A DNA stretch of 9,889 nucleotides from Escherichia coli (GTDB lineage: Bacteria > Pseudomonadota > Gammaproteobacteria > Enterobacterales > Enterobacteriaceae), in NCBI RefSeq assembly GCF_003334785.1, contig NZ_QOWV01000033.1; one strand, written 5' to 3'. The first letter of the stretch is position 1, and every line of letters starts with the position of its first letter. The notes beneath the pieces were generated by a model. The model was not told the origin of the DNA, ran no database searches, and worked only from the letters and a program-made list of their open reading frames with translations. The position numbers and the translations under genes were made by a program. Positions 8,688 to 9,639 of this stretch are shown here, piece after piece.

Positions 8688-9435
8688 TATGAACTTTACC
8701 CTCTCCTCCTAAATCGGTAACAACACTCCATTCAACTTCAGTTTTATCAACTGTGTTAATTTTGTATTCCTTTATACTAAAAGGAGGGATGTAATCAGGT
8801 CTTTCAACCTCTTTTTTGTTGATAATTAGTTTTTTTATGTTTTGATAGTTTGGTGTGGGATTGTATGCTTTCAACACCCCATGGTCTTTTGACCATTCTA
8901 TTTCATTACCACTGCTATAATTAATCGGCGATATGCCTTTAGGGCGGTAAATTAATTTTATGCAACCCTCAACAGCCAGGTTCACACCTAGTGTTGTTTT
9001 TGATTTTTTTAATGCCTCACTATTTTCTGCAGCCCATGCATCTTCTTCTGTCGGAGGAACTCCTTTTGTACATAGCCAAAATAATGATTCTCTATCTTGT
9101 GGTAATGAGGAAATATCTTTACTATATACACGCAGTTTGCTATTTTGTCCCTCATTCAAACGAAACAAAGGCGGCGTTGTTAAAAATTTTTTTGTTTTTG
9201 TTTGTTTATCCTCCTCAATTATTCTTGTCTGAACAAGAATAGGATAGGTATGAGGATTTTTTACGGTTAGAAGTGCCCCCTTTGCCTCTTTATCAAGAAT
9301 AACTCTTGAACGATCGAGTCTGAGTGAAAACTCCTTAACATGTGTTGAAAATTTATTATCTGCATAACTATTGCTGGCTGCTAACGCTCCCCCCACCAAA
9401 AGACTTGTAAGTAAATTCTTTCTACTAATAAACAT
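8671..9435 (-). CDS. Periplasmic fimbrial chaperone (PapD-like)
   Basis: Signal peptide MFISRKNLLTSLLVGGALAASNSYA, then a chaperone N-domain pattern (SLRLDRSRVILDKEAKGALLTVKNP). The ATG at 9435 is preceded by AGGAGG at about 7 nt. The track ORF begins at a TTG at 9480, 15 codons upstream, with no ribosome-binding site. 254 aa from 9435. Confidence 0.85.
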   Translation of the reverse strand: MFISRKNLLTSLLVGGALAASNSYADNKFSTHVKEFSLRLDRSRVILDKEAKGALLTVKNPHTYPILVQTRIIEEDKQTKTKKFLTTPPLFRLNEGQNSKLRVYSKDISSLPQDRESLFWLCTKGVPPTEEDAWAAENSEALKKSKTTLGVNLAVEGCIKLIYRPKGISPINYSSGNEIEWSKDHGVLKAYNPTPNYQNIKKLIINKKEVERPDYIPPFSIKEYKINTVDKTEVEWSVVTDLGGEGKVHNETIK

Positions 9436-9639
9436 CGACAGGCCTCCTATGTAAAATGAAAACAATAACTGGTCGTGCAATGTGAATATGATAAAAAAAC
9501 AATAATTTTGTTTGTTGTGCGTATATTTTGGTATTTTTGCACTTTCAATTTGGCGGGTTTTATGTCTAGCTAAAACTTAGTTTTTTATCTCCGATGATAT
9601 TTATCTGTATCAACTTTAACTGACAAGAAGAAAGGTTTA
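9436..9639. promoter_or_regulatory. AT-rich divergent intergenic region: likely promoter/regulatory region of the chaperone-usher operon and of the short plus-strand ORF
   Basis: About 200 bp of AT-rich sequence between divergently oriented start codons (9435 minus, 9640 plus). Expected site of Rns/AggR-type activation, but no site could be assigned by eye. Confidence 0.35.

What the first reader, a model, noticed from the sequence alone, without database searches (positions are those of the whole stretch)
9435..9480. Chaperone start codon likely mis-set by naive ORF calling
The longest ORF starts at a TTG (9480) with no ribosome-binding site and adds 15 residues (MHDQLLFSFYIGGLS) ahead of a canonical signal peptide. 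The ATG at 9435 has AGGAGG at ideal spacing and begins directly with MFISRKNLLTSLLVGGALAASNSYA. The shorter gene lengthens the divergent promoter region to about 200 bp.
Basis: seen in the sequence. Interest (0 to 1): 0.18.

Follow-up and report, generated by a model that had tools for sequence, protein, structure and literature searches.

The report
Fimbrial chaperone gene starts at ATG
The fimbrial chaperone gene on this E. coli plasmid almost certainly starts at the ATG at 9435, as the reference annotation already says, and the 15 extra codons of the longest reading frame are promoter and leader DNA, so this is an ordinary annotation point.

Summary
On the minus strand, the longest ORF starts at TTG 9480 and an in-frame ATG lies at 9435. 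AGGAGG (9448-9443) sits 7 nt upstream of that ATG.

- RefSeq/PGAP already annotates the 254-aa protein from ATG 9435.
- Predicted pairing with the 16S rRNA tail is -10.2 kcal/mol for the ATG and +1.5 for the TTG.
- Relatives place their start 34-37 residues before a conserved VKEF motif. The window gives 36 from the ATG and 51 from the TTG.
- In a relative 92% identical across the gene, the 45-nt stretch is only 71% identical. It has lost both TTGs, and its changes do not favour third codon positions.
- Five of nine related loci have in-frame stops 4-11 codons upstream of the ATG.

The 45 nt most likely hold the promoter. An AggR/Rns-type activator box (GTTTTTTTATC, 9500-9490) lies 22 bp upstream of a -10 element (TATTGT, 9467-9462). 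This puts the TTG upstream of the predicted transcript start. A Rns-like regulator is encoded in the window. This promoter reading is an inference.

The "divergent gene" is a 42-codon unannotated ORF, so "divergent promoter" is doubtful. Ordinary and already known.

The parts
8671..9435 (-). Periplasmic fimbrial chaperone gene, preferred model (254 aa plus stop). It is an FGL-type PapD-like chaperone.
   Evidence: PGAP uses these coordinates. Pfam finds PapD_N (1.3e-31) and PapD_C (7.6e-06). PDB matches are DraB (1.5e-50) and Caf1M (6.5e-41).
9361..9435 (-). Predicted Sec signal peptide of 25 residues, MFISRKNLLTSLLVGGALAASNSYA, with cleavage before DNK.
   Evidence: The n-region MFISRK carries +2 and the hydrophobic core is SLLVGGALAA. 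S-Y-A at residues 23-25 fits the -3/-1 rule. Mature Caf1M and DraB align from just after this point. This is a heuristic; SignalP was not available.
9443..9448 (-). Shine-Dalgarno sequence AGGAGG, 7 nt upstream of ATG 9435.
   Evidence: -10.2 kcal/mol. It is conserved as GGAGG in L003, L020 and L011, and is weaker in some other loci.
9436..9480 (-). The 45 nt that the longest ORF adds (TTG 9480 plus 14 codons). Interpreted as non-coding: promoter spacer, -10 element, transcript start and 5' leader.
   Evidence: It is 71% identical to L020 against 91.9% for the CDS (Fisher p = 9e-5). Ten of its 13 differences fall at codon positions 1 or 2, and both TTGs are lost. L006 has a 1-nt indel here.
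9462..9467 (-). Predicted -10 hexamer TATTGT. The predicted transcript start is near 9455 (inferred).
   Evidence: It lies 22 bp downstream of the TATC box, as in AggR-dependent promoters (PMC6392122). TAnnnT occupies the same position in 6 of 9 related loci and in L020 as TACAGT.
9490..9500 (-). Predicted binding site for an AggR/Rns-class activator, GTTTTTTTATC.
   Evidence: It matches WWWWWWWTATC with one mismatch, a G at the first position as in the functional aafD site GTTTATTTATC. It is conserved in alignments A1 and A3. The distance from the end of TATC to the ATG is 54-58 nt in 6 of 9 loci.
6231..8687 (-). Outer-membrane usher gene (818 aa), overlapping the end of the chaperone gene by 17 nt.
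5623..6129 (-). Major fimbrial subunit of the CS15/CS22/SEF14 family (168 aa).
   Evidence: PGAP gives this name. Pfam SEF14_adhesin scores 1.1e-05.
3470..4279 (+). Rns/CsvR-like AraC-family activator (269 aa), the candidate regulator of the predicted promoter.
   Evidence: E = 1.8e-59 over the full length to the Rns structures 8vrq/6xiu, and 1.5e-52 to CsvR.
5245..5424 (+). ANR (AraC negative regulator) family gene.
   Evidence: NCBIfam NF033650 scores 51.2 bits against a cutoff of 32. PGAP agrees.

Best explanation
The chaperone of this three-gene CS15/CS22/SEF14-type chaperone-usher operon is translated from ATG 9435. The AGGAGG 7 nt upstream directs initiation, giving a 254-aa precursor with a normal 25-residue Sec signal peptide cleaved after SYA. 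The upstream TTG 9480 opens the 'longest ORF' only because the AT-rich upstream DNA happens to lack an in-frame stop. Those 45 nt are regulatory. They lie between a predicted AggR/Rns-type activator box (GTTTTTTTATC, 9500-9490) and the gene, and they contain the -10 element (TATTGT, 9467-9462), the predicted transcript start (about 9455) and a leader of about 20 nt carrying the ribosome-binding site. On this model the TTG is not even in the mRNA. The start codon, the signal peptide and the lack of coding constraint are shown. The promoter, the transcript start and the dependence on the Rns-like regulator encoded at 3470-4279 are inferred.
For: RefSeq annotates the ATG start on identical DNA. 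The 254-aa form is on 226 contigs across NCBI, JGI and UniRef. SD duplex energy is -10.2 kcal/mol for the ATG and +1.5 kcal/mol for the TTG. Relatives start at the equivalent Met, and Met-to-VKEF is 34-37 residues in the family, 36 here. Against L020/L021, the 45 nt are 71% identical while the CDS is 91.9% identical (p = 9e-5). Differences in the 45 nt fall 3/7/3 across codon positions, against 14/5/43 in the CDS, and TTG 9480 and TTG 9465 are replaced by TCA and CAG. In-frame stops lie 4-11 codons upstream of the ATG in 5 of 9 loci. AggR-dependent promoters are defined as WWWWWWWTATC followed by 21-23 bp and then the -10 (PMC6392122). The window and 5 other loci show this layout with the end of TATC 54-58 nt from the ATG, and fewer than 1% of shuffles per locus place one there. 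The same layout precedes the subunit gene, the ANR gene and the Rns-like gene in this window. A Rns homologue is encoded in the window. The sigma-70 consensus scan finds no -35/-10 promoter on the minus strand upstream of the gene, as expected for an activator-dependent promoter.
Against: There is no experimental transcript start or translation-initiation data for this operon. The frame stays open 48 codons upstream of the ATG in the window, so a read-through transcript could contain the TTG. Some automated callers do output the 269-aa form (62 contigs in Logan and ENA). NCBI annotates over-extended starts for two relatives, P0002 (287 aa) and P0011. WWWWWWWTATC is a degenerate motif in AT-rich DNA: 10-24% of shuffled 200-nt upstream regions contain some box-plus-(-10) match. 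The related loci share ancestry, so positional conservation across them is not an independent probability. Three of 9 loci carry variant boxes (TAGC or ATAC instead of TATC). The signal-peptide assessment is heuristic, not SignalP.
Confidence: 0.93

Rival explanations
1. The TTG at 9480 is the genuine start. The chaperone would then be made as a 269-aa precursor with a 40-residue signal peptide.
For: It is the longest ORF. The 269-aa form exists in automated calls on 62 contigs. The frame is open, and TTG is a legitimate though rare bacterial start codon.
Against: The TTG has no ribosome-binding site (+1.5 kcal/mol). The extension places a 14-residue hydrophobic stretch ahead of the positively charged n-region, giving an n-region of 21 residues against 5-11 in relatives. 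It is not conserved in any relative, and the TTG is lost in a relative whose CDS is 92% identical in DNA. The substitution pattern is non-coding. PGAP rejects it. It lies inside the predicted promoter.
Confidence: 0.03
2. Both starts are used. A minor TTG-initiated isoform, or translation across the leader from a read-through transcript, would modulate use of the ATG.
For: The frame is open upstream, and IS-derived sequence upstream could supply read-through transcription. Nothing tested here excludes low-level initiation.
Against: There is no SD sequence and no conservation of the TTG or of the peptide. No known family precedent was found.
Confidence: 0.03
3. The gene starts downstream of 9435, at TTG 9399 or GTG 9396.
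For: Both are in-frame start-like codons.
Against: Neither has an SD sequence (-0.2 kcal/mol). Starting there would delete the charged n-region and part of the hydrophobic core of the signal peptide, which a periplasmic chaperone needs. All relatives carry a full signal peptide.
Confidence: 0.01

Closest known systems
RefSeq protein WP_087896796.1 (fimbria/pilus periplasmic chaperone) on plasmids NZ_AP022179.1 and NZ_CP069544.1
   Different: Nothing differs. The finding reproduces the existing annotation.
FGL-type periplasmic chaperones DraB (PDB 4djm), Caf1M (1p5u) and SafB (2co6), and SefB
   Same: It has the two PapD domains. The subunit-anchoring Arg and Lys (R59 and K175 in long-form numbering) and the Cys pair (C137 and C173) are conserved and align with Caf1M. 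It has a cleaved Sec signal peptide.
   Different: All specific NCBIfam equivalog models score far below their cutoffs (SafB 160 bits against 475, SefB 99 against 352). It is therefore a separate lineage, not an orthologue of any of them.
AggR-dependent fimbrial promoters of enteroaggregative E. coli (aafD, afaB, aggD, agg3D, agg4D; Yasir et al. 2019, PMC6392122)
   Same: There is a single WWWWWWWTATC box 21-22 bp upstream of a weak -10, with no -35 element, in front of the chaperone gene that leads the operon. The window's box GTTTTTTTATC differs at one base from the aafD site GTTTATTTATC. The relatives' -10 hexamers TATCTT and TAGCAT are the same as those of afaB and aafD.
   Different: The regulator here is a Rns/CsvR-like protein, not AggR itself. 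No binding or expression data exist, so the assignment rests on sequence pattern and conservation only.
CS15/CS22 colonization factors of ETEC and the CS22-like cluster of EAEC (Boisen et al. 2020, PMC7500659)
   Same: The subunit family is SEF14-like, the chaperone and usher are sefB/sefC-like, the cluster is plasmid-borne, and it co-occurs with an AggR/Rns-type regulator and an Aar/ANR gene.
   Different: The EAEC CS22-like cluster is described with four genes, including an AfaD-like minor subunit next to the usher. The window and its 8 related loci have only chaperone, usher and one 161-170-aa subunit. Identity of the subunit to published CS15 or CS22 was not tested because the CS22 paper PMC97580 is not held.

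Membership tests
PapD-like periplasmic chaperone (FGL subfamily) | PapD_N and PapD_C immunoglobulin-like domains | tested here: met
   Pfam finds PF00345 at 1.3e-31 (residues 53-183 of the long form) and PF02753 at 7.6e-06.
PapD-like periplasmic chaperone (FGL subfamily) | Conserved cleft Arg and Lys that anchor the subunit C-terminus, plus the FGL-specific Cys pair | tested here: met
   R59, K175, C137 and C173 are invariant in alignment A2. They align with the SRIIY, CIKL and WLCVKG motifs of Caf1M. The roles of these residues are taken from established knowledge of Caf1M and PapD.
PapD-like periplasmic chaperone (FGL subfamily) | N-terminal Sec signal peptide for export to the periplasm | tested here: met
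   With ATG 9435 the n-region carries +2, a hydrophobic core is present and SYA precedes the cleavage site at residue 25. This is heuristic only; SignalP was not available.
SefB / SafB orthologue (NCBIfam equivalog or exception models) | Score above the curated cutoff | tested here: not met
   SafB scores 160 bits against a cutoff of 475 and SefB scores 99 against 352. The protein is related to these but is not an orthologue.
AggR/Rns-class activator-dependent promoter | WWWWWWWTATC box with at most 2 mismatches in the A/T tract | tested here: met
   GTTTTTTTATC lies at 9500-9490 with 1 mismatch. The definition comes from PMC6392122.
AggR/Rns-class activator-dependent promoter | A -10 hexamer with A at position 2, located 21-23 bp downstream of the box | tested here: met
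   TATTGT lies at 9467-9462 after a 22-bp spacer. The equivalent layout is present in 6 of 9 related loci and in L020.
AggR/Rns-class activator-dependent promoter | A cognate Rns/AggR-family activator is present | tested here: met
   The gene at 3470-4279 matches Rns with E = 1.8e-59 over its full length. An ANR gene lies next to it.
AggR/Rns-class activator-dependent promoter | Activator-dependent transcription starting about 7 nt downstream of the -10 | not testable with these tools
   This needs primer extension, 5'-RACE or reporter fusions with and without the regulator.
CS15/CS22/SEF14 fimbrial family | Major subunit with a SEF14-like adhesin fold or sequence | tested here: met
   Pfam SEF14_adhesin scores 1.1e-05 over residues 3-164 and PGAP gives the family name. 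The NCBIfam SefA model scores well below its cutoff (16.9 against 328), so membership is at family level only.

The most novel reading that the evidence does not exclude
This concerns the regulatory DNA, not the start codon. This CS15/CS22/SEF14-type fimbrial cassette and its relatives may be driven by AggR/Rns-class promoters of one fixed architecture (TATC box, 21-22 bp, -10, with the end of TATC about 55 nt from the ATG). In this window, four such promoters would form a small regulon under a Rns-like activator. They lie before the chaperone-usher genes, before the major subunit gene as an internal promoter, before the ANR anti-activator gene, and before the activator gene itself. The 'extra codons' of the longest ORF would then be the core promoter. 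The 287-aa NCBI annotation of the sister chaperone P0002 would be an error that translates through its own activator site.
Probability: 0.55. Interest if true: 0.25.

Novelty: already known. Interest (0 to 1): 0.07.

Why it matters
The start-codon question has little consequence. The mature periplasmic chaperone is the same with either start, because the signal peptide is cleaved at the same site, and the reference annotation already uses the ATG. The practical value is for annotation hygiene. Longest-ORF calling, and some automated pipelines (269-aa calls in Logan and ENA, the 287-aa NCBI model of a sister gene), swallow the promoter into the coding sequence. That would mislead signal-peptide prediction, cloning of expression constructs and promoter mapping for an ETEC colonization-factor operon. 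The inferred Rns-type promoter gives a testable handle on how this poorly studied fimbrial type is regulated.

Tried and rejected
- **Consensus promoter scan of 9300-9889.** It found no minus-strand promoter upstream of the gene, only an intragenic minus-strand match and a plus-strand match. It was therefore uninformative, but the result fits an activator-dependent promoter without a -35 element.
- **Rfam scan of the whole window.** No RNA family matched near 9435-9720; the only match was a group II intron domain at 2521-2607. A structured RNA element was therefore not pursued.
- **The + strand 'divergent gene'.** It is 42 codons. It has no NCBIfam match and no annotation. tblastn finds about 63% similar unannotated sequence on E. 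albertii plasmids, in one case next to another chaperone-usher operon. A blastn search of the upstream region against E. coli genomes found only the two identical plasmids. Local tblastn shows that IS66 transposase homology starts at 9805, at residue 314 of 538. The identity of the small ORF was left unresolved.
- **The original CS22 paper (PMC97580).** It is not held, so subunit identity to CS22 or CS15 was not checked.
- **Downstream alternative starts 9399 and 9396.** These were rejected because they have no SD sequence and would truncate the signal peptide.
- **The binomial P value from shuffles (3e-11).** It is not used as a probability, because the loci are homologous.

Full report
**What is in the sequence.** On the minus strand the region reads ...TTGTTTTTTTATCATATTCACA TTG CAC GAC CAG TTA TTG TTT TCA TTT TAC ATA GGA GGC CTG TCG ATG TTT ATT AGT AGA AAG.... 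The longest ORF is 8671..9480, 269 aa, and starts at TTG. Its first 15 codons give MHDQLLFSFYIGGLS. The in-frame ATG at 9435 opens MFISRKNLLTSLLVGGALAASNSYA|DNK. AGGAGG lies at 9448-9443, 7 nt from the ATG. All coordinates and sequences in the finding are correct.

**Context.** The window is 100% identical to two complete E. coli plasmids, NZ_AP022179.1 and NZ_CP069544.1. Both also carry the ETEC autotransporter gene eatA. The minus strand carries a three-gene chaperone-usher operon:
- the chaperone, 8671-9435;
- the usher, 6231-8687;
- a major subunit of the CS15/CS22/SEF14 family, 5623-6129.

An ANR gene follows (5245-5424, +), then a RobA/SoxS-like AraC-family gene (4327-5151, -) and a Rns-like AraC-family gene (3470-4279, +). 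The chaperone is of the FGL type. Its best solved relatives are DraB (1.5e-50), Caf1M (6.5e-41) and SafB. The cleft Arg and Lys and the Cys pair are conserved.

**Which start codon.**
- PGAP annotates the identical DNA as a 254-aa protein, WP_087896796.1, which starts at window position 9435.
- Predicted pairing with the 3' end of 16S rRNA is -10.2 kcal/mol upstream of the ATG and +1.5 kcal/mol upstream of the TTG. Only 15 of 961 start-like triplets in the window reach -10 kcal/mol.
- In a protein alignment, 9 of 12 relatives (34-84% identical) begin within about two residues of this Met. The distance from the initiating Met to the conserved VKEF motif is 34-37 residues in the family. It is 36 from the ATG and 51 from the TTG.
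- With the ATG, the signal peptide has a 6-residue n-region with charge +2, a hydrophobic core, and S-Y-A before the cleavage site at residue 25. With the TTG, the n-region would be 21 residues and would include a second hydrophobic stretch.
- Pfam PapD_N begins at residue 53 of the long form. The mature N-termini of Caf1M and DraB align from residue 42.

**Comparative DNA evidence.** I retrieved nine related loci that all share the chaperone-usher-subunit layout. In five of them an in-frame stop lies 4-11 codons upstream of the homologous ATG. L006 also has a 1-nt indel within the stretch.

The most telling comparison is with L020/L021. Their chaperone gene is 91.9% identical in DNA and about 93% identical in protein. 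The 45-nt 'extension' is only 71% identical (13 differences; Fisher p = 9e-5 against the CDS). Differences fall 3/7/3 across codon positions, against 14/5/43 in the CDS. TTG 9480 and TTG 9465 correspond to TCA and CAG. The last 14 nt (AGGAGGCCTGTC, then G or A) are conserved. The stretch therefore evolves as non-coding DNA with a conserved ribosome-binding site.

**What the 45 nt most likely are (inference).** Yasir et al. (PMC6392122) define AggR-dependent fimbrial promoters by a single WWWWWWWTATC site 21-23 bp upstream of a -10 hexamer, and note that AggR sites resemble Rns sites.

The window has GTTTTTTTATC at 9500-9490, which is one base different from the functional aafD site. A 22-bp spacer follows, then TATTGT at 9467-9462. 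The same layout is present in 6 of 9 related loci, with the end of TATC 54-58 nt from the ATG. The -10 hexamers include TATCTT, TAGCCT, TAGAAT and TATAAT. The other three loci carry variant boxes at the same place. L020 keeps the box, the 22-bp spacing and TACAGT, although the spacer itself has diverged. Per locus, fewer than 1% of dinucleotide shuffles place such a match at that distance. The loci are related by descent, so I treat this as conservation, not as a probability.

A transcript start about 7 nt downstream of the -10 would lie near 9455. That gives a leader of about 20 nt containing the SD sequence and leaves TTG 9480 in the promoter spacer, outside the mRNA.

The window encodes a full-length Rns homologue (E = 1.8e-59 to Rns structures) and an ANR-family protein. 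The same box/spacer/-10 layout precedes three other genes:
- the subunit gene (6225-6188, -);
- the ANR gene (5177-5214, +);
- the Rns-like gene (3386-3424, +).

Six further matches lie inside or astride coding sequence and are probably chance. The literature fits this picture: CS22-like clusters in EAEC co-occur with aggR and aar (PMC7500659).

**What is not supported.** The 'divergent promoter region of about 200 bp' assumes a real + strand gene at 9639. That ORF is 42 codons and is unannotated. It has no family match and runs into IS66-derived sequence. DNA similarity to ISEc23 begins at 9707 and protein-level transposase homology begins at 9805. The native upstream region of this operon is bounded by mobile-element remnants, as it is in most related loci.

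**How the error appears in databases.** The 254-aa form is on 226 contigs across NCBI, JGI, UniRef and other sources. The 269-aa form is on 62 contigs, all from Logan or ENA automated calls. The 79%-identical sister chaperone P0002 is annotated at NCBI as 287 aa. Its ATG lies upstream of its own TATC box and its 32-aa extension is unrelated in sequence, apart from the 'GGL' that is the translated SD sequence. P0011 is similarly over-extended.

**Verdict.** The result is ordinary and already reflected in RefSeq. The only added value is the inferred AggR/Rns-type promoter that occupies the supposed extra codons.

Noticed in passing
window 6225-6188 (-), 5177-5214 (+), 3386-3424 (+): The same activator-box layout (W7-TATC, 21-22 bp, -10) occurs three more times. 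GTTTTTTTATC-21-TATCAT lies in the usher-subunit intergenic region, 58 nt before the subunit ATG at 6129. GTATTTTTATC-21-TAGCAT lies 30 nt before the ANR ATG at 5245. AAAAAAATATC-22-GATAAT lies 45 nt before the Rns-like ATG at 3470. This suggests an internal promoter for the major subunit gene and a small autoregulated regulon.
   Followed up: partly
L003 6001-6864 (protein P0002); also P0011: The 79%-identical sister chaperone is annotated at NCBI as 287 aa. Its ATG lies 32 codons upstream of the homologous Met, so the annotated protein is translated through its own TATC box and -10 element. P0011 ('caf1M') carries a similar unrelated extension. Both are probably over-extended start annotations.
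   Followed up: partly
window 9639-9767 (+): This is a 42-codon ORF with a signal-peptide-like start (MNKTLAILLFSVSFSAYA|DINLYG...). It is unannotated in RefSeq, though a gene caller called it in one related assembly (L016). About 63% similar unannotated sequence occurs on E. albertii plasmids, in one case just after another chaperone-usher operon. It may be the remnant of a truncated gene.
   Followed up: partly
window 6164-6180 (-): A hairpin, CCCCTT-AAGTA-AAGGGG, is followed by an interrupted T-rich tract between the usher stop and the subunit start. It begins at about the predicted start of the subunit transcript. It could be a partial terminator for the chaperone-usher message or a stabilising 5' hairpin.
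   Followed up: no
window 5236-5245 (+): The same kind of start ambiguity occurs in the ANR gene. The longest ORF starts at GTG 5236 (62 aa), while PGAP uses ATG 5245 (59 aa).
   Followed up: no
window 994-2607 (+): A 507-aa ORF (994-2517) is followed by a group II intron match in Rfam at 2521-2607 (64.9 bits). PGAP annotates a partial group II intron reverse transcriptase/maturase here, followed by an IS3 fragment.
   Followed up: no
window 4327-5151 (-) and related loci L008, L012: A second AraC-family gene has an N-terminal RobA/SoxS-like DNA-binding domain. It lies convergent with the Rns-like gene, and the pair recurs next to the fimbrial cassette in L008 and, with the Rns-like gene split into two short calls, in L012. 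Its role is unknown.
   Followed up: no
L003, L006-L012 flanks: The three-gene cassette (chaperone, usher, SEF14-like subunit) is bordered by a different mobile element in nearly every locus: IS630-type, IS91/Y2, IS110 or IS66. In one metagenome contig it sits next to a serine-protease autotransporter gene. This suggests a cassette that moves among virulence plasmids.
   Followed up: no
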